Below, one piece after another: positions 34,863 to 56,333 of a stretch of 64,000 bases of DNA. Source of the DNA: Thermoproteota archaeon (GTDB lineage Archaea > Thermoproteota > Thermoprotei_A > Sulfolobales > Ignisphaeraceae). Numbering within the stretch: the first letter of the stretch is position 1; every line of letters starts with the position of its first letter. The stretch lies in contig JAUQPB010000003.1 in assembly GCA_030550585.1 (NCBI GenBank), forward strand, positions 196,333 to 260,332, written 5' to 3'. The notes beneath the pieces were generated by a model. That model made no database searches, had not been told where the DNA came from, and saw only the letters and a program-made list of their open reading frames with translations. The position numbers were made by a program, and so were the translations under genes.

Positions 34863-34954
34863 GCCGCCGTAGCTCAGCCCGGTAGAGCGCCGGACTCATA
34901 TGCTAAATGGGTTGGGAGATCCGGTGGTCGCGGGTTCAAGTCCCGCCGGCGGCA
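34863..34954 (+). tRNA. tRNA-Met(CAT), elongator, with 18-nt intron at 37/38 (34901-34918)
   Basis: Acceptor GCCGCCG/CGGCGGC-A, anticodon stem CCGGA/TCCGG with CT-CAT-A|intron|A, T loop GTTCAAG; TATA box TTATAAA about 30 nt upstream. Confidence 0.93.
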
Positions 34955-39703: not shown

Positions 39704-40491
39704 CTAGGCCTTAGGATCACCGTGTACTTTGAGCTCTGGTAGCTCTGGCAGGTTCGGTAGCTCAATTCTGCTCGAACCAAGCTTCTCGGCGAAGATGTTA
39801 TAAGCTGCTACAAGGGTCTTGGGACAAGGTGGTTTTACAAGGAGCTCTACTGGGGTCTCACGAGTATTGCTATGTACGCTTTCCACGGGTTGGGGGTCTT
39901 GATGTACTCTGTCACGAGCTCTAATTCCTCTAACCTTATGTTGAGGCCCACCAACATGGCTTTCATCAGCAATCTGCCTTTGAATAAACACGAGAACTCG
40001 AGCATGTCATCTAGTACTCGACTGAGAGATAGCTCGTGATGAGGTCTGTTAATTTTCTTCTACATCTACTCACCCACAGCATTCACCTTTACTGAAACGA
40101 TACCAGCACTAAGCAAGCTCTCCCTAGCCTCCTCAACATACAGCAGAGAGTCGTTGGATAGCCAGCTACGGGCTTATCATCAACCTCCTTAATGTCTGCT
40201 ATTAGTAAATCTGCTCTCTCGTCGAGGAGGGGTTCATCATCCGACACTAGCATGATGCAATCGACATCGCTGCTCCATTTCATGAGAAAGTCGCGCACCT
40301 CATCAACTATTTCACGGGGGTCATAAAATGCTGTTCTCTTGACTATGTAATTGATCGTTCTACCTAACTGGTAATACACAAGAGCACGTACAGGTCTTGT
40401 AGGGAACATGATTGATGCCTAGGCTCCTGCCCAACCTCCTAGACCTCACAAGGCCGAAGACATACCTGTATCGTTGCTTATCGTGCTCCAA
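39704..40491 (-). pseudogene. Frameshifted radical SAM (COG0731-like Fe-S oxidoreductase) pseudogene
   Basis: [30 protein letters not shown] in one frame, then YQLGRT...DEPLLD and ...LVKPP in other frames; CxxxCxxC motif broken. Confidence 0.8.
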
Positions 40492-40515
40492 AATCTACTA
40501 CCATTTTATGATGCC

Positions 40516-40658
40516 TTACCTTATTAAGGTAGGAGACTTAATGAAAACCCAGTAGAGCGGAACTATATCCCTATTCTCTTCAAACCCGCAACTGAGACAT
40601 TTCATGGTTCTCACATGTTTCTTTCTTCTTTTGAGCACTAGCTTCCCTCCGTATTTAG
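40516..40658 (-). pseudogene. 3' remnant of a TnpB-like zinc-ribbon gene (different family from 55125-56321)
   Basis: Reads (P)KYGGKLVLKRRKKHVRTMKCLSCGFEENRDIVPLYW...stop. Confidence 0.65.
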
Positions 40659-40868
40659 GGGTTCACCTCTTTGCATATTTGTATATGTATGTTTTTGTAT
40701 GATGTGTCATCGGCTCATCTTTTGAGGTCTACTCTTCGATCTGGCTTCACACTTCAATGTAGAGGCATTTTAGAGAGGTTCGGGACTCACATACGCCTGC
40801 AAAGCTTCATTGCACATCCTTAGGCATCAGTCTCGCCAAGCAGATAAACCCCTTCATTGGAAACCACA
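40659..40868 (-). mobile_element. Miniature non-autonomous derivative of the TnpB element (left leader + omegaRNA-like 3' region, tnpB deleted)
   Basis: Minus strand tgtggtttccaatgaaggggtttatc...gatgcctaagg matches 55081-55134; ...atgagccgatgac...aaagaggtgaaccc matches 56278-56333. Confidence 0.85.
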
Positions 40869-40959
40869 TAAATAGCTGTTAGCACACAGACCTAGAATTT
40901 TTGTGCTCAATAATAGAGAAAAGCGATTAAAAGTATTTAGATGTAATTAAGAACAAACA

Positions 40960-41210
40960 AAAATCAGTTACGGCCTCCATATGCACATCTTGTAGATGCC
41001 TATAATGGTAAATCTACCACCATACTAAAGCGCAGGATCCGATGTTGTTGTCTGAAGACATCAACACAATCTCAGTTCTATTGGGTTCATGCACAAGGTA
41101 GTAAACAGAATAGCAATGCAGCGACAAAGAATCCTCCTCACAGAGACCTACCAACACGTTCAAGGGTCACTGTCTAGATGCAATCTCCGTGCTCTTAAGC
41201 TTAAACACTG
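40960..41210 (-). pseudogene. Degraded gene fragment, possibly GNAT-family N-terminus
   Basis: Stop-interrupted frame ...LHCYSVYYLVHEPNRTEIVL...GSCALVWW. Confidence 0.3.
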
Positions 41211-41982
41211 TACTCCTAATCCAAGTACACCCTTTATTCTTTCTAGTCCATATACATTGGTAATATCAGCTGAAAAATCTTGATAGTTGAAGAGCCTTTC
41301 ATGATATTGTTGCGTTAGTAATCTCGTAAAATAAATACTGTATACGAGTTACCGACTATGTTAAAGTGACTTGTAAGAGCAGTCTTGTAAGCTATAGGAT
41401 CGTGTTTGAGCATAATGGATGAAATTCAAGCCTTAATCCTCCATGATGTGTCGGAGTTCTGCGAAGTCTTTTCTCCATAGCTAAGAAACCGAGAGGCATC
41501 GCCCCAGAGAATTACAGCAAAATGCCAAAGATAATTCAAGGACAGCTATAAATAATACTATACTAAATCTCGGCAAAGCCAATGTTTAATTAGCAAACTA
41601 ATTATGTAATGTCAACATGCATTTTCTTATATTACTCAACCAATTATAGCATCATCATGCCATAATTAATTCTACGCTTAAGCAAGTCTCTCATGTATTA
41701 GCAGTAAATATGTTTTGAGAATAAGCAACCATGAGATTATTTGCAGTAGAATTTGTCTATATAGTTGCACCTGAAAATAGCTGAGATCTTAAGGACATGC
41801 AGAACAGTATAAGGGTATAATGCCATATTCCGATATAAAGATGATGTAACTAGACGGGTTACAGAATCTAGAGGGATAATATATTATAGCTAGAAGCCCT
41901 AATTGTATTGAAATATTGAAACCCTAAGGAGTTCATCATAATTATCGATAGCTTATTTAAGGCTAATTACAGTAATATAGGT

Positions 41983-42204
41983 GTGGGAATAGAGATTATG
42001 GCTAGAGTTGTCCGTGTTCGGTATGAAAATGGTGTTTTAAAGCCTCTTGAAAAACTCGATCTTAGCGAAGGCGAGGAAGTCGAGGTTGTTATACGTAGAA
42101 GACATGATCATGCCTTCGGCGCTCTTCTTCGTAGAAGACCTGATCTAAAACCTGAAGATGTTAATAAGGTTATTGAGGAAATTGAAAGTGAGGGTATTCT
42201 TTGA
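41983..42204 (+). CDS. vapB: Antitoxin, AF2212/DUF104 family
   Basis: VRVRYENGVLKPLEKLDLSEGEEVEVVI; overlaps the PIN gene. Confidence 0.9.
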   Translation: MGIEIMARVVRVRYENGVLKPLEKLDLSEGEEVEVVIRRRHDHAFGALLRRRPDLKPEDVNKVIEEIESEGIL

Positions 42205-42625
42205 CTCCAATGTTTTCCTCAAGTATCTTGCTGGTGTTGAAGAAGCCAAGAAACTCCTAGATAAGGTTGAATACGGTGAATGGAAAGGTTATGTGAATGA
42301 TGTTGTAATAAGTGAGGTTGTCTATGGGTATCTAAGGTTAGCTCTTAACATATCTAGGTATAGGCTTAGAGAGTATGTAGTCAACTATGTGGATAGGGTT
42401 GGGGAATTGCTAGAGCAAGATGTATATCCATTGTTTGTAAACTTCGAGCATCTACCAACCAGCACAGGCATAGACACATTGTTGGAATACGTAGTTAGGT
42501 ATAAATTGTTGCCGAATGATGCCCTAATAGCAACTACATGTAAAGTCTACGACATAAAGGACATCGCTACATTCGACGAAGACTTTGCCAGAGTTCCATG
42601 GCTAAGGATATGGAAGGAGGTGTAA
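42158..42625 (+). CDS. vapC: VapC PIN-domain toxin
   Basis: FFDSNV, VISEV, LLPNDALIA, IATFDEDF; start probably GTG 42188. Confidence 0.92.
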   Translation: MLIRLLRKLKVRVFFDSNVFLKYLAGVEEAKKLLDKVEYGEWKGYVNDVVISEVVYGYLRLALNISRYRLREYVVNYVDRVGELLEQDVYPLFVNFEHLPTSTGIDTLLEYVVRYKLLPNDALIATTCKVYDIKDIATFDEDFARVPWLRIWKEV

Positions 42626-54481: not shown

Positions 54482-54872
54482 TTCTCTCTACCTAACACTA
54501 AAACTTGTAAATAAAGATTTAAATAATTTTGAGAAACCATCACCAAGTGGTAGTTAAGATTCGGGGGTATAGTTTCTAGACAGTTCTGTAATTAGATGTG
54601 CCAAAGATAGTTCACATAGCTAGAATTGCTTAACCAAAAAGCTGTGCGGAGATAATTAAAGTAATGGCTATTCCAGCTACCTATTGCTAAGAGTTGTTGA
54701 TAGCGCAACAATGGCAAAAGAAATAGAATTTGCAGAGATGGAGGTTAGCAAGTGTGTTATGCAGATCTGGGCTACAGTATTTGAGCCTGCTATAGCCGTA
54801 GCAAAATTTATATGACTGCATATAAAAGCATATGCTCTTCGTGGCTTAGCTTATGTCTCCATTTGATTGTTT

Positions 54873-55019
54873 TTAATCGCTTTCTTCTATTACCACTACC
54901 TTAACCTTCTTTCCGTGTAGTTTTGATAGCTTTTCTTGGTATTCTTTTGGTGGGTATATCAGGTATTTCCTCATGGTTTTAACAATCTTTGCTTCAAACA
55001 CATATATAGAGACCATCAC
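54873..55019 (-). CDS. Small AbrB-like/DUF2080-like transposon-associated protein
   Basis: VFEAKIVKTMRKYLIYPPKEYQEKL..LHGKKVKVVV; divergent from tnpB; exact start uncertain. Confidence 0.55.
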   Translation of the reverse strand: MMVSIYVFEAKIVKTMRKYLIYPPKEYQEKLSKLHGKKVKVVVIEESD

Positions 55020-55080
55020 TTTCACCATATAGGTAATAGAGTGTAAAAACTTATAAATTTGCACTCTGAATAACTAATGT

Positions 55081-56333
55081 TGTGAGTTCCGATGAAGGCG
55101 TTTATCCACCTAGGCTGTAGGTGGATGCCTGAGGGTGCATACTACAAAGCCTTTAAGGCTGAGGCAGAGGTTGTCGAAGGGAATGCTAGCGACTTGCTGT
55201 GGGATTTAACGATATATAGGTATGCTTTGCAAAAGGTTGTAGACGCTCTATGGGATTTAGATGGGCTTCCGAAGAAGAGTCAGCTACACCAAATGTTCTA
55301 CCCAGTGCTCAGAGAATATGGCTTTAGAGCGCATGTGGCTAGAAATATCTACAGCTATGCACTAGCCTTGGTCAAAGCCGCTAAAAACAGCAATGGCGAC
55401 AAGCCAAAGATTAAAAGATTGTCTGCTAGACTAGACCACCAGGATGCAAGAGTTGAGCTAGACAAAGGAGTTGTCAAAGTTGTTTTGAGAAACAAGCAAT
55501 ATACTCTTAGATTAAAGCATAGGAGAGAGTACATCGAGAGGTTTAGGAATTTAAAGTGGAAAGAGGTTCACGTAAAGTACGAGAATAAGAAAGTCTTTGT
55601 TAGCATAGTCTTCGAGGTTAGGTACAATCCATATGTTCCAAAAGGCTTAACAGCAGTTGATGTGAATCTGAGAACTGTTACAACATTCGACGGCTCTGAA
55701 ACTAGAAGATATAGAACAAGATTTGTCGAGGCATTGAGCAAGAAGGCTAGAGCTGAAGAGATACAGAAGAGATATTCTAAGAGGTGGAGATACAATGAGA
55801 AGACTCTGAATAGAGTCAGAGCTCTACATAGAAAAGCTAGAAACATCATAACCGATTTCTGCTGGAAACTAGCAAAGGAGGTTGTAGCTAAAGCGTATAG
55901 ACAAAAGCATGCTATTGCCTTGGAAGACCTAGAGTACTTGAGGAACTCTATTAATGGCAAAAGCAGCGGTGTTAGGTGGAGGCTAACACTATTTGCCTAT
56001 AGAAAGCTTCAACATACTATTATAGCCAAGTCAATTGAGTACAACGTCCCAGTAGTTGTTGTAGACCCAAGAAACACGTCATCGATTTGCCCAAGATGCG
56101 GCTCTAAGCTAATCTACGTGAGCAGGCTAGCAATCTGCAGGAAATGCGAGTTCAAAAGAGACAGGGATTTTGTTGGAGCAATAAACATCTACTTACGGGG
56201 GATGTGGGGAAGCATCGGGTCTTCCCCAAACGGGGGTGGAATGAAGAATGAAACCCGACAAACCACCCCAAACAGAAATGAGCCGATGACCACTTATATA
56301 AAATCATATACAAGCATATAAAGAGGTGAACCC
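55081..56333 (+). mobile_element. IS200/IS605-superfamily solo-TnpB element (no tnpA)
   Basis: Boundaries inferred from homology with the miniature copy at 40659-40868; hairpin CCACCTA-ggctg-TAGGTGG at 55106-55124. Confidence 0.75.
55125..56321 (+). CDS. tnpB: RNA-guided endonuclease TnpB
   Basis: RuvC-I AVDVN, RuvC-II ALEDL, zinc ribbon CPRC/CRKC, RuvC-III RDRDFVGAINI; start moved to the ATG at 55125 (GGTGG RBS). Confidence 0.92.
   Translation: MPEGAYYKAFKAEAEVVEGNASDLLWDLTIYRYALQKVVDALWDLDGLPKKSQLHQMFYPVLREYGFRAHVARNIYSYALALVKAAKNSNGDKPKIKRLSARLDHQDARVELDKGVVKVVLRNKQYTLRLKHRREYIERFRNLKWKEVHVKYENKKVFVSIVFEVRYNPYVPKGLTAVDVNLRTVTTFDGSETRRYRTRFVEALSKKARAEEIQKRYSKRWRYNEKTLNRVRALHRKARNIITDFCWKLAKEVVAKAYRQKHAIALEDLEYLRNSINGKSSGVRWRLTLFAYRKLQHTIIAKSIEYNVPVVVVDPRNTSSICPRCGSKLIYVSRLAICRKCEFKRDRDFVGAINIYLRGMWGSIGSSPNGGGMKNETRQTTPNRNEPMTTYIKSYTSI

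What the first reader, a model, noticed from the sequence alone, without database searches (positions are those of the whole stretch)
40516..40868. Protein-less miniature TnpB element (leader + omegaRNA-like region) whose predicted guide is a fragment of another tnpB
Seen: on the minus strand, 40868-40659 aligns by eye to both ends of the intact TnpB element 14 kb away. The 5' part tgtggtttccaatgaaggggtttatc...gATGCCTaagg matches tgtgagttccgatgaaggcgtttatc...gATGCCTgagg. The ~140-nt 3' part ...tgaagtgtgaagccaga...atgagccgatgac...aaagaggtgaaccc matches ...tgaagaatgaaacccga...atgagccgatgac...aaagaggtgaaccc. The coding region is deleted after the first codons, leaving the segment that in IS200/IS605 elements encodes the omegaRNA/reRNA. 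Directly after the shared end lies ctaaatacggagggaagctag..., which encodes the zinc-ribbon/RuvC-III tail of a different TnpB-like family. Known: TnpB takes its guide from the DNA flanking the element's right end. Inference: this could be a stand-alone, trans-acting omegaRNA that programs the intact TnpB against a second transposon family (inter-element conflict, or a one-spacer proto-CRISPR), or simply a MITE-like passenger.
Basis: partly seen in the sequence, partly recalled or inferred. Interest (0 to 1): 0.85.

Follow-up and report, generated by a model that had tools for sequence, protein, structure and literature searches.

The report
Decayed protein-less TnpB mini-transposon (PATE)
This is a real but worn-out, gene-less miniature copy of a nearby TnpB transposon, of a kind already described, and its supposed guide against another transposon is most simply the scar of an old insertion rather than a working weapon.

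Summary
On the minus strand, window 40971-40659 (313 bp) is an internal-deletion derivative of the TnpB-only IS200/IS605-type element at 54798-56333. It keeps a short left end, the tnpB leader and first codons, and the last ~145 nt, which in this family form a covarying omegaRNA-like module. The matched 5' part is the tnpB leader, not the transposon's left end, which lies ~285 bp further left. A mini with the same deletion junction sits at another locus in a congeneric genome. Two well-preserved minis of a second lineage occur in other families of the order. So this is a PATE/MITE-like class, and print already says such elements carry omegaRNAs used in trans (Meers 2023; Dyall-Smith 2011).

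The window copy looks dead:
- It is a single copy.
- It has lost the first hairpin and an otherwise invariant GGGU loop.
- Its TATA-like box is altered.
- No Y1 TnpA is in the genome.
- Its two flanks come from different genes: a GNAT pseudogene on the left and the tail of a second TnpB-like family on the right. Each junction lies next to the family's GCC target motif.

The guide matches nothing else in the genome. No RNA data exist. Verdict: an ordinary decayed member of a known kind, with conflict or proto-CRISPR readings unsupported.

The parts
40659..40971 (-). Protein-less mini-element (PATE/MITE-like), 313 bp: short diverged left end, tnpB leader plus about 20 first codons, then the omegaRNA-like module and the right end (...AAAGAGGTGAACCC ends at 40659)
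   Evidence: Colinear blocks to the full element. Alignment to the G007 mini. Covariance-model hit at 40659-40803, 63.8 bits. Left boundary where GNAT homology stops.
40659..40803 (-). omegaRNA-like module of the mini, degenerate. Stem 2 keeps 5 of 7 pairs and stem 3 keeps 3 of 3. Hairpin 1 is reduced to 3 outer pairs around a 30-nt insert. The GGGU loop is lost. There is a 4-nt insertion in the A/T-rich terminal part.
40972..40974 (-). GCC immediately 5' of the mini's left end, in the position of the family's target-adjacent motif (TAM); it belongs to the GNAT pseudogene
40972..41232 (-). N-terminal ~90 codons of a GNAT-acetyltransferase pseudogene (frameshifted). Homology stops exactly at the mini's left end and no remainder of the gene lies downstream.
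40509..40658 (-). Last ~150 bp (second half of the zinc ribbon, RuvC-III, stop, right end) of a second, divergent TnpB-like element. Its first ~20 nt would be the 'guide' of the mini.
54798..56333 (+). Full TnpB-only IS200/IS605-type element (1,536 bp), preceded by GCC at 54795-54797. Parent family of the mini, though not its direct parent.
55092..56321 (+). tnpB, 409 aa. Matches NF040570 guided_TnpB (119.7 bits, cut-off 100) and PF07282. The RuvC-II Glu and RuvC-III Asp align to a solved Cas12f.
56202..56333 (+). omegaRNA-like module of the full element (90.5 bits). Contains hairpin 1 with a GGGU loop, stem 2 around ATGAnnnATGAAACCnGA, a long-range GCC/GGY stem, and the terminal ...GAACCC.
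54873..55016 (-). Conserved 47-aa accessory ORF inside the full element (63 aa if read from GTG at 55064). Deleted in the mini except for its last codons.

Best explanation
Window 40971-40659 (minus strand) is a decayed, now immobile, protein-less internal-deletion derivative of an archaeal TnpB-only IS200/IS605-type element. Such derivatives are known as PATEs (MITE-like).

Inferred history:
1. In an ancestor related to the element at 54798-56333, a deletion of about 1 kb joined codon ~20 of tnpB to the start of the 3' omegaRNA-like module. A second loss removed the small accessory ORF.
2. The resulting mini spread as a non-autonomous element. It inserted 3' of the family's GCC motif without target duplication, presumably moved by a Y1 TnpA supplied in trans.
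3. One copy landed in a GNAT gene and one in the zinc-finger codons of a second TnpB-like element.
4. Recombination between copies, or an adjacent deletion, left one chimeric copy. Its left flank is GNAT and its right flank is the other element's tail.

When such a mini is intact, its RNA would be transcribed from the leader, fold into the scaffold and take the ~16-20 nt after ...GAACCC as guide. It would borrow TnpB from a full copy to cut the vacated GCC+flank site, so that the mini is restored by recombination.

In this copy that circuit is most likely broken. Hairpin 1 and the invariant GGGU loop are lost, the TATA-like box is altered, the left-end palindrome is missing, the genome has no TnpA, and there is no target for the guide.

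Shown: homology, boundaries, structure conservation in the family, loss of features in the mini, absence of targets. Inferred: the order of events, trans use of TnpA and TnpB, and loss of function.
For: Derivation:
- Three colinear blocks match the full element.
- The deletion junction (...TTGCAGGC|GTATGTG...) is shared with the G007 mini, which lies between unrelated genes.
- A larger internal-deletion copy at C7:213957-214950 shows that deletions are ongoing.

Family boundaries and target motif:
- 12 of 13 distinct left ends are preceded by GCC; the other has ACC.
- Two empty sites in G000, corresponding to occupied sites in G007, keep a single GCC and show no duplication.
- 27 of 27 right ends end in AAAGAGGYGAACCC (one reads GCAAACCC) and are followed by unrelated flanks.

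Mini junctions:
- The left junction is GGCC|GT, where the GNAT paralogue in C2 has AGCC|TA.
- The right flank starts exactly after a GCC in 3 of 4 homologues of the second TnpB-like family.
- No GNAT remainder lies downstream.

Structured RNA in the family, on 21 modules adjoining tnpB coding sequence:
- 98.3% of 410 pair cells are paired, against 72.7 +/- 1.6 in shuffles (0 of 500 reach it) and at most 58.8% when slid.
- 13 of 13 pairs of hairpin 1 and stem 2 show changes on both sides.

Decay of the mini:
- It scores 63.8 bits, against 82.3-163.9 for those 21 modules and 145.8 for its closest right-end relative, L007.
- Hairpin 1 is reduced to 3 pairs around a 30-nt insert.
- GGGU is present in 21 of 21 modules and in the 4 other modules without an adjoining full tnpB, but not here.
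- Its terminal module has the lowest mean identity of the full-length modules: 0.808, against 0.825-0.912 for 20 tnpB-linked ones.
- TTATAAAT, present in 3 of 3 G000 copies, reads TC-TAGGT here.

No machinery or target:
- No PF01797 match in a 99.9%-complete genome.
- The covariance model finds 4 modules genome-wide: the 3 larger copies plus this one.
- The guide has no second match at up to 3 mismatches in 16 nt next to a GCC.

Precedent:
- PMC3119063 (passages read) describes PATEs as core-deleted IS605-type elements in archaea and counts frequent insertion of mobile elements into other mobile elements.
- PMC10055086 (passages read) states that PATEs often encode omegaRNAs that must be used in trans by TnpB.
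Against: - The mini is still recognisable to the model (E about 1e-13). It keeps stem 3, 5 of 7 pairs of stem 2 and the exact terminal AAAGAGGTGAACCC.
- Two apparently intact tnpB genes (C3 and C4, 409 aa each) are available in trans.
- The A/T-rich terminal part tolerates indels. The well-preserved mini L059 lacks 11 nt there, so the 4-nt insertion need not matter.
- The mini's terminal-module identity lies only just below the tnpB-linked range.
- For other TnpBs, 5' parts of the omegaRNA are reported to be dispensable (recalled, not checked here), so loss of hairpin 1 may not abolish loading.
- The pseudoknot reading of GGGU/ACCC rests on invariance only, with no covariation.
- Read-through from the GNAT pseudogene's promoter could still transcribe the mini.
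- The TATA argument is by eye against a recalled archaeal consensus.
- No RNA data bear on the question either way.
- The pair counts were made on an alignment fitted to the model's structure, so they lean towards it.
Confidence: 0.72

Rival explanations
1. The mini still produces a working trans-acting omegaRNA. TnpB from the full copies loads it and cuts GCC-flanked DNA matching CTAAATACGGAGGG... This would either maintain the mini (homing) or exclude re-invading elements of the second TnpB-like family (inter-transposon conflict, a one-guide immunity).
For: - Stem 2 (5 of 7 pairs), stem 3 and the terminal 14 nt are kept, and the model E-value is about 1e-13.
- Intact tnpB genes are present.
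- The flank begins exactly after a GCC in 3 of 4 homologues of the second family. It lies in conserved Cys-Pro-x-Cys codons, so it would be a sensible target.
- No intact member of that family remains in the genome, which exclusion would also predict.
- Minis of a second lineage keep a fully intact module (134.9 and 121.5 bits). This suggests selection on the RNA part in this class.
Against: - Hairpin 1 and the GGGU loop, invariant in 21 of 21 tnpB-adjoining modules, are lost.
- The TATA-like box is altered.
- The guide has no target in the genome, none in viral contigs and only 3 unrelated bacterial hits in 596 Gb.
- The homologues found elsewhere differ from the guide at 7 of 20 positions (my count).
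- The flank is itself a decaying pseudogene fragment.
- Absence of a family from one 1.76-Mb genome is weak evidence of exclusion.
- A guide from the flank is automatic for any copy.
Confidence: 0.12
2. The mini never transposed as a mini. A full-length element sat here and was whittled down in place by deletions, together with its neighbours. On this reading the locus is a junkyard of fragments, and the resemblance to the G007 mini reflects parallel decay.
For: - Deletion derivatives and solo right-end pieces of many lengths occur: the C7 copy, a 30-nt piece in C1, 52-58-nt pieces in L052 and L055, and the 5'-truncated L007.
- The flanks are not contiguous.
- A related strain loses colinearity at 41477, so the region is variable.
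Against: - The junction sequence TTGCAGGCGTATGT is identical (14 of 14) in the window mini and the G007 mini, while the rest is ~71% identical. The two lie between unrelated genes. That points to one deletion event followed by movement.
- Both mini junctions sit next to GCC, as expected for insertion rather than random breakage.
Confidence: 0.1
3. The locus is a nascent CRISPR-like array or a domesticated guide RNA gene (as with TldR-type TnpB relatives) that regulates or targets host DNA.
For: Only the general resemblance of scaffold plus adjacent guide.
Against: - There is no second scaffold or repeat after the guide. The model finds 4 hits genome-wide and none is adjacent. Only short two-copy repeats occur in 39800-41800.
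- The guide has no partner site in the genome.
- No nuclease-dead TnpB is nearby; the TnpB keeps its catalytic Glu and Asp.
- The locus is not conserved in 39 of 40 relatives searched.
Confidence: 0.02

Closest known systems
PATEs (palindrome-associated transposable elements) of haloarchaea, derived from IS605/IS1341-type elements (Dyall-Smith et al. 2011, PMC3119063; passages read)
   Same: [quoted passage not shown] Derived from TnpB-only IS605-type elements by deletion of the core. No terminal inverted repeats and no target duplication. Insertion next to a short oligonucleotide. Often found inside other mobile elements. Mobile although Y1 transposase genes are scarce or broken in the genome.
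   Different: The host is a hot-spring archaeon rather than a halophile. This copy keeps the tnpB leader and the whole 3' RNA module rather than only the two palindromic tips. Its left-end palindrome is missing. It is a single copy here, whereas PATEs in Haloquadratum number in the hundreds.
PATE-like elements with omegaRNAs in Geobacillus stearothermophilus (Meers et al. 2023, PMC10055086; introduction, results, discussion and methods passages read)
   Same: Protein-less IS200/IS605-type elements that carry an omegaRNA and would need TnpB from another element in trans. The logic of TAM at the left flank and guide from the right flank is the same.
   Different: That work has small-RNA-seq and functional assays; here there are none. 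The host is bacterial, with an identified TnpA. The present copy is degenerate and no TnpA is found.
TnpB/omegaRNA of IS200/IS605 elements such as ISDra2 (Karvelis 2021, PMC8612924, and cryo-EM PMC10097598; search listing and abstracts only)
   Same: An RNA scaffold overlaps the 3' end of tnpB and the right end, with the guide read from the flank. There is a short target-adjacent motif 5' of the target. The nuclease has a RuvC domain and a zinc ribbon.
   Different: The motif here is GCC, from empty-site comparison and not from a cleavage assay. The scaffold sequence is unrelated. The pseudoknot proposed here (GGGU with ACCC) is inferred from invariance only.
CRISPR arrays and type V (Cas12) systems
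   Same: A guide lies next to a structured scaffold and is used by a RuvC nuclease of the same superfamily.
   Different: There is no repeat-spacer-repeat unit, no acquisition genes, one 'guide' fixed by insertion history, and no match to an invader.

Membership tests
IS200/IS605 family, TnpB-only (IS1341-type) elements - the full element at 54798-56333 | Encodes TnpB (RuvC nuclease with zinc ribbon) | tested here: met
   NF040570 at 119.7 bits (cut-off 100). PF07282 at 61.1 bits (cut-off 26.3). Matches solved Cas12f/TnpB-type chains with the Glu and Asp aligned.
IS200/IS605 family, TnpB-only (IS1341-type) elements - the full element at 54798-56333 | Inserts 3' of a short conserved motif, with no terminal inverted repeats and no target duplication | tested here: met
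   12 of 13 left ends are preceded by GCC. Two empty sites keep one GCC and show no duplication. 27 right ends end in ...GAACCC with unrelated flanks.
IS200/IS605 family, TnpB-only (IS1341-type) elements - the full element at 54798-56333 | Subterminal palindromes at both ends | tested here: inconclusive
   The left end has TATATGACTGCATATA and the right end has TATATAAAATCATATA, both seen by eye. No DNA-fold test was run.
IS200/IS605 family, TnpB-only (IS1341-type) elements - the full element at 54798-56333 | Mobilised by a Y1 (HUH) TnpA | tested here: not met
   No PF01797 match in G000. Of 5 other genomes carrying the family, 1 has a match (G210), and that gene is not flanked by these ends. 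TnpA in trans from elsewhere or in the past cannot be excluded.
PATE / MITE-like derivative of an IS605-type element - the mini at 40659-40971 | Too short to encode a protein, with ends homologous to an IS605-type element | tested here: met
   The mini is 313 bp. The right end and the RNA module are homologous. The left part is homologous in two blocks. The extreme left end begins GT after GCC like the family, but otherwise resembles only the G007 mini.
PATE / MITE-like derivative of an IS605-type element - the mini at 40659-40971 | Near-terminal palindromes retained | tested here: not met
   The left-end palindrome of the full element is absent from the window mini and from the G007 mini. It is present in the minis L059 and L071.
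PATE / MITE-like derivative of an IS605-type element - the mini at 40659-40971 | Evidence of mobilisation as a mini (copies at different loci) | tested here: met
   The same deletion junction occurs in G007 L002 between unrelated genes. There is only one copy in G000, and the left part was found in 1 of 40 other genomes.
TnpB omegaRNA | Conserved structured RNA overlapping the 3' end of tnpB and ending at the right end | tested here: met
   Met for the family. The terminal 56 nt are 83-91% identical on average across TnpBs that are only 44-55% identical in protein. Covariation is strong in hairpin 1 and stem 2. No Rfam family matched in the window at gathering scores.
TnpB omegaRNA | The mini keeps that structure | tested here: not met
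   Hairpin 1 and the GGGU loop are lost, stem 2 keeps 5 of 7 pairs, stem 3 is kept. The mini scores 63.8 bits against 82-164.
TnpB omegaRNA | Transcribed, processed and bound by TnpB, and directs cleavage next to a TAM | not testable with these tools
   No run on record as RNA holds the locus.
CRISPR-like array (proto-CRISPR) | A guide flanked by repeated scaffold or repeat units, and a guide matching foreign DNA | tested here: not met
   No second module is adjacent. There are no meaningful repeats in 39800-41800. The guide has no viral match and no archaeal match.

The most novel reading that the evidence does not exclude
The mini's RNA is still made, perhaps by read-through from the GNAT pseudogene, and still loads into the TnpB of the full copies despite the lost first hairpin. 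Its guide copies the conserved Cys-Pro-x-Cys zinc-finger codons of a rival TnpB-like family right after a GCC motif. The mini would therefore act as a heritable one-guide immunity that cuts incoming elements of that family. This would be transposon-against-transposon interference, a plausible stepping stone from homing guides to defence guides. The absence of any intact member of the rival family from this genome would then be its footprint.
Probability: 0.05. Interest if true: 0.75.

Novelty: new member of a known kind. Interest (0 to 1): 0.28.

Why it matters
As it stands, this is an annotation result. It shows a decayed PATE in a hot-spring archaeal MAG, and it shows that a 'guide aimed at another transposon' can arise trivially from nested insertion.

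The by-products are modestly useful:
- a cleanly delimited archaeal TnpB element family, with GCC as its insertion motif taken from empty-site pairs;
- a 132-nt omegaRNA-like module with strong covariation and a candidate pseudoknot;
- two lineages of leader-plus-RNA minis spread over four genomes in three taxonomic families;
- a conserved 47-aa accessory ORF.

Together they give a natural test set for which RNA parts TnpB needs in trans. If the low-probability reading were true, it would bear on how transposon homing guides could be turned into defence.

Tried and rejected
- RNAalifold on the plain MAFFT alignment of 19 right ends gave only 10 pairs, because the stems of different subfamilies were out of register. 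I replaced it with a hand-drawn structure on one subfamily (A5), a covariance model (R1) and model-guided alignments. Those alignments lean towards the structure.
- Rfam at gathering scores found only 3 tRNAs in the window and nothing at either element.
- Expression: the look-up of sequencing runs listed no RNA holder, so nothing can be said on transcription.
- Laying DNA contigs of 4 runs showed the locus unchanged in X1 and X2. In X3 there were only short low-depth contigs, one of which ends at 40660. A related strain's contig leaves colinearity at 41477. No empty site for the mini was seen, and parts without cover prove nothing.
- Guide search: there is no second site in the genome. The exact 18-mer gave 3 hits in unrelated bacteria in 596 Gb, fewer than the roughly 17 I estimate by chance, and 0 in viral contigs.
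- In-genome search for the second TnpB-like family using the 48-aa fragment found only weak zinc-ribbon look-alikes. The family was identified only through relatives.
- I looked for the rest of the GNAT gene downstream of the mini and found none, so a simple single insertion into GNAT is rejected.
- I looked for a TnpA that could move the family. There is none in G000. One truncated gene in G210 lacks these ends.
- Terminal-module identity separates the mini from tnpB-linked copies only marginally, so I do not lean on it.
- Fold search for the 47-aa ORF gave no match at E <= 0.001. The best were RIFT-fold dimers at E 0.6 and VapB/MazE chains at E 6-10, so the AbrB-like idea stays a guess.
- The sigma-70 promoter and terminator scanner was not used, because the genome is archaeal (full-length archaeal SSU model match, 1491 bits).
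- Supplementary files of the papers were not opened. The PATE tables of PMC3119063 (Tables S6, S8, S9) and Extended Data Fig. 2e of Meers et al. may show closer precedents for leader-plus-omegaRNA minis.
Full report
**Setting.** The window is C3:196333-260332 of a 1.76-Mb, 7-contig genome of about 41% G+C. It has a full-length match to the archaeal SSU rRNA model (1491 bits). Its DNA is held by hot-spring metagenome runs.

**Checking the observation.**
- A sensitive pairwise BLAST gives three colinear blocks:
  - 40932-40911 with 54871-54892 (22 nt, 91%);
  - 40868-40843 with 55081-55106 (26 nt, 85%);
  - 40718-40659 with 56278-56333 (60 nt, 77%, E 8e-8).
- Genome-wide, the 3' block hits all three larger copies of the element.
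- The 5' blocks are short. Homology is secured through a second mini in the congeneric genome G007 (locus L002). It aligns with the window mini over 202 nt (71%, E 1e-22) and with the full element's leader over 123 nt (72%, E 1e-10).

- Extending the comparison shows that the three copies share sequence from about 54795 to 56333. The other two copies are C4:312049-313588 (88.6% over 1,540 nt) and C7:213957-214950 (an internal-deletion copy).
- The element holds a small ORF on the opposite strand (54873-55064) as well as tnpB (55092-56321, 409 aa). TnpB matches NF040570 at 119.7 bits and PF07282 at 61.1 bits, and its RuvC-II Glu and RuvC-III Asp align to a solved Cas12f.

**Boundaries and target motif of the family.**
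- Among 13 distinct left ends collected from this and other genomes, 12 read GCC|GT(A/G)GCAA... and one reads ACC.
- Two copies in G007 have their empty sites in G000. The occupied ...GAGA|GCCGTAGC...GAACCC|AATAGAG... corresponds to the empty ...GAGAGCCAATAGAG... The occupied ...CACA|GCCGTAGC...GAACCC|GAGAAC... corresponds to the empty ...CACAGCCGACAAC....
- The element proper therefore runs from GT (54798) to ...GAACCC (56333). It inserts 3' of GCC and makes no target duplication (for coordinates).
- All 27 right ends examined end in AAAGAGGYGAACCC, apart from one copy that reads GCAAACCC, and are followed by unrelated sequence.
- These are the hallmarks of IS200/IS605 'peel and paste' elements.
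- No Y1 TnpA (PF01797) is found in this 99.9%-complete genome. Only 1 of 5 other carrier genomes has one, and it is not linked to these ends.

**A structured RNA module at the right end.**
- The last 204 nt of the element find matches in 21 of 251 genomes of the order.
- The terminal 56 nt (ATGAGCCGATGACC...AAAGAGGYGAACCC) stay 83-91% identical on average across elements whose TnpB proteins are only 44-55% identical to the window's.
- By eye, two stems change sequence between subfamilies while keeping complementarity. For example GGGGAAG/CTTCCCC, CCCCACG/CGTGGGG and CTCCCCT/GAGGGAG.
- Plain RNAalifold failed on the unregistered alignment. It did point to pairing of an invariant GGGU loop with the terminal ACCC, and of GCC with GGY.
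- I drew the structure on one subfamily (A5) and built a 132-position model (R1). I then aligned to it the 21 modules that adjoin tnpB coding sequence.
- On that alignment, 98.3% of 410 pair cells form standard pairs. Shuffles give 72.7 +/- 1.6 (0 of 500 reach the observed value) and slid partners give at most 58.8%. All 13 pairs of hairpin 1 and stem 2 show changes on both sides.
- The four GGGU/ACCC pairs never vary, so the pseudoknot is a proposal, not a demonstrated pairing. The alignment is fitted to the model and so leans towards it.
- No Rfam family covers this RNA.
- Its position, overlapping the 3' end of tnpB and ending at the right end, is that of a TnpB omegaRNA.

**Anatomy of the mini.**
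- Homology of the left flank to a GNAT-acetyltransferase gene stops at 40972. The evidence is a paralogous pseudogene at C2:1087-1345 and intact 252-295-aa homologues in 7 related genomes. One of these passes Pfam FR47 and Acetyltransf_1.
- The junction reads ...TGGAGGCC|GTAACTG..., where the C2 paralogue has ...TGGAAGCC|TATCAG.... The mini therefore starts with GT right after a GCC, like the family.
- It ends at 40659 with AAAGAGGTGAACCC, so the mini is 313 bp (40971-40659).
- From left to right it holds:
  - about 40 nt of diverged left end without the family's TATATG...CATATA palindrome;
  - the last codons of the small ORF;
  - the intergenic promoter region;
  - the tnpB start and about 20 codons (to ...AAGGC);
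  - directly after that, the RNA module from just before hairpin 1 to the right end.
- The junction string TTGCAGGCGTATGT is identical in the window mini and the G007 mini, while the rest is ~71% identical. The G007 copy lies between unrelated genes.
- One deletion event followed by spread is the simplest reading.

**Other minis.**
- Among right-end-bearing loci without a TnpB match, two are complete minis of another lineage: L071:1501-1810 (G050, 310 bp) and L059:1501-1834 (G132, 334 bp).
- Each has GCC|GTAGCAA..., the left-end palindrome, a leader with a hairpin, and an intact RNA module (134.9 and 121.5 bits).
- Others are solo right-end pieces of 30-190 nt.
- Protein-less leader-plus-RNA derivatives are thus recurrent in this order: four copies in four genomes of three taxonomic families, in two lineages.

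**State of the window copy.**
- R1 scores it at 63.8 bits. The 21 tnpB-adjoining modules score 82.3-163.9 and its nearest right-end relative, L007, scores 145.8.
- The model alignment shows hairpin 1 replaced by three outer pairs around a 30-nt insert. Stem 2 has 2 of 7 pairs broken. Stem 3 is intact. There is a 4-nt insertion in the A/T-rich part.
- The GGGU loop is present in 21 of 21 tnpB-adjoining modules and in L007, L071, L059 and L002, but it is absent here.
- The box TTATAAAT upstream of tnpB, identical in the three G000 copies and CTATAAGA in the G007 mini, reads TC-TAGGT here. That it is the TATA box is my reading against the archaeal consensus, which I recall and did not test.
- Terminal-module identity is the lowest of the full-length modules (0.808 against 0.825-0.912), but only just. 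The preserved mini L059 lacks 11 nt there, so I give this little weight.
- The G007 mini has decayed differently: hairpin 1 is kept and the terminal part is lost (34.5 bits).

**The 'guide' and the right flank.**
- The 48 codons after the right end (open to 40516) match PF07282 only weakly (E 1e-3, below the cut-off). That is on a par with unrelated zinc-ribbon ORFs in the genome.
- Relatives settle the identification. The fragment is 45-55% identical (E 5e-12 to 8e-10) to the C-termini of open frames in G006 (two places), G001, G138 and G154. The frames are 384-403 aa in G006 and G001, and 243 and 336 aa in G138 and G154, where contig ends cut them. One of them passes PF07282 (33.4 bits against 26.3) and weakly matches guided_TnpB.
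- Their nucleotide alignment shows that the family's homology ends about 150 bp after the mini (about 40509). What lies here is therefore only the last ~150 bp of such an element.
- The flank begins exactly after the GCC of the Cys-Pro codons (TGC CCn) in 3 of the 4 homologues.
- Both junctions of the mini thus look like bona fide GCC-directed insertions, but into two different genes. No GNAT remainder lies downstream.
- I infer two insertions followed by recombination between copies or an adjacent deletion. The order of events cannot be recovered.
- The guide (CTAAATACGGAGGGAAGC...) has no other site in the genome. The only perfect match is itself, preceded by CCC rather than GCC. The 3 sites with 3 mismatches in 16 nt are not preceded by GCC.
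- The guide has no viral match and 3 matches in unrelated bacteria.
- The homologous stretch in G001 differs at 7 of 20 positions (my count).
- No intact member of the second family is in the genome.

**Population and expression data.**
- No run on record as RNA holds the locus.
- DNA contigs from two runs carry the locus unchanged. A related strain's contig departs at 41477.

**Comparison with what is known.**
- Dyall-Smith et al. 2011 (PMC3119063; passages read) defined PATEs in an archaeon as transposase-free elements with IS605-type ends. Some arose by core deletion of TnpB-only elements.
[quoted passage not shown] It reports mobility despite broken Y1 genes, and it counts 192 insertions of mobile elements into other mobile elements.
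- Meers et al. 2023 (PMC10055086; passages read) found PATE-like elements without genes. [quoted passage not shown]
- My two literature searches turned up no report of a PATE guide serving as defence against another IS. I did not search exhaustively and could not open supplements.

**Verdict.**
- The interpretation as a MITE-like passenger holds. The conflict and proto-CRISPR readings are unsupported, though not formally excluded.
- Best explanation (about 0.7): a decayed, chimeric, single-copy PATE whose 'guide' is an insertion scar.
- Interest is low to moderate. It comes mainly from the by-products: the GCC motif from empty sites, the covarying RNA module with a candidate pseudoknot, the recurrent minis, and a conserved 47-aa accessory ORF.

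Noticed in passing
window 54873-55016 (-) (63 aa if read from GTG at 55064): A 47-aa ORF lies inside the TnpB element, divergent from tnpB. tblastn finds it in 13 of 20 loci searched, including elements whose TnpB is only ~45-55% identical (consensus MVxVYVFEAxIVKxGxKYLIYPPKEYQEKL.KLHGKKVKV..V.E.D). It has no Pfam or NCBIfam match. The AlphaFold model has pLDDT 89.5 (two strands plus a helix). The best fold matches are weak: RIFT-fold dimers at E 0.6 and VapB/MazE chains at E 6-10. It may be a small DNA-binding regulator, analogous in role to the Arc repressor reported for bacterial IS605 elements (bioRxiv 10.64898/2026.09.24.754181, abstract read).
   Followed up: partly
window 55039-55066: An inverted repeat, GAGTGT ... 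GCACTC, brackets the TATA-like box TTATAAAT (55051-55058) upstream of tnpB. The mini has a different inverted repeat (AGCACA ... TGTGCT) at the same place. It could be an operator for the small ORF's product. Seen by eye only.
   Followed up: no
window 55104-55126; mini 40846-40823 approx.: A hairpin lies in the tnpB leader and first codons (ATCCACCT aggctgt AGGTGGAT). The G007 mini has compensatory changes (CCGCCT/AGGCGG), and the minis L059 and L071 have a different hairpin at the same place (CCACCC.../GGGTGG...). In the window mini it has 2 mismatches in 8. All four minis keep this region. Its function is unknown.
   Followed up: no
G000 C1:~88812-88814 and C4:~91307-91309 (outside the window): These are empty insertion sites in this genome for two element copies present in congeneric genome G007. 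Each shows a single GCC and no duplication, which defines the family's insertion motif.
   Followed up: yes
G000 C7:213957-214950 (outside the window): A third copy of the element has an internal deletion of about 560 bp in tnpB. It keeps the left end, the small ORF, about 93 N-terminal codons, the C-terminal third and an intact RNA module (89.3 bits). It is an intermediate on the way to a mini.
   Followed up: partly
L071:1501-1810 (G050) and L059:1501-1834 (G132): Two well-preserved protein-less minis (310 and 334 bp) of a second lineage. Each has the left-end palindrome, the leader hairpin and a complete RNA module (134.9 and 121.5 bits). They occur in genomes of two other taxonomic families of the order.
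   Followed up: partly
window 40933-40940 and 40651-40658 (-); G000 C4:753504-753527: The 8-mer CTAAATAC occurs in the mini's left part and again as the first 8 nt of the right flank. A 24-nt stretch of the mini's left part (CTAAATACTTTTAATCGCTT...) has a 96% match at C4:753504-753527 with no other element features around it. Probably chance, and unexplained.
   Followed up: partly
window 41477: Contigs of a related strain in two metagenome runs (X2, X4; 95-99% alike to the right of this point) leave colinearity at 41477. The block holding the GNAT pseudogene, the mini and the second-family tail therefore lies in a variable region.
   Followed up: no
window 34863-34954 (+): Rfam calls a tRNA of 92 nt here (64.4 bits) that ARAGORN did not report. 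This is consistent with an intron-containing archaeal tRNA.
   Followed up: no
window 41983-42625 (+): Two overlapping small ORFs (73 aa and 155 aa) just beyond the GNAT pseudogene look by eye like an antitoxin/PIN-toxin pair. This was not tested with any tool.
   Followed up: no
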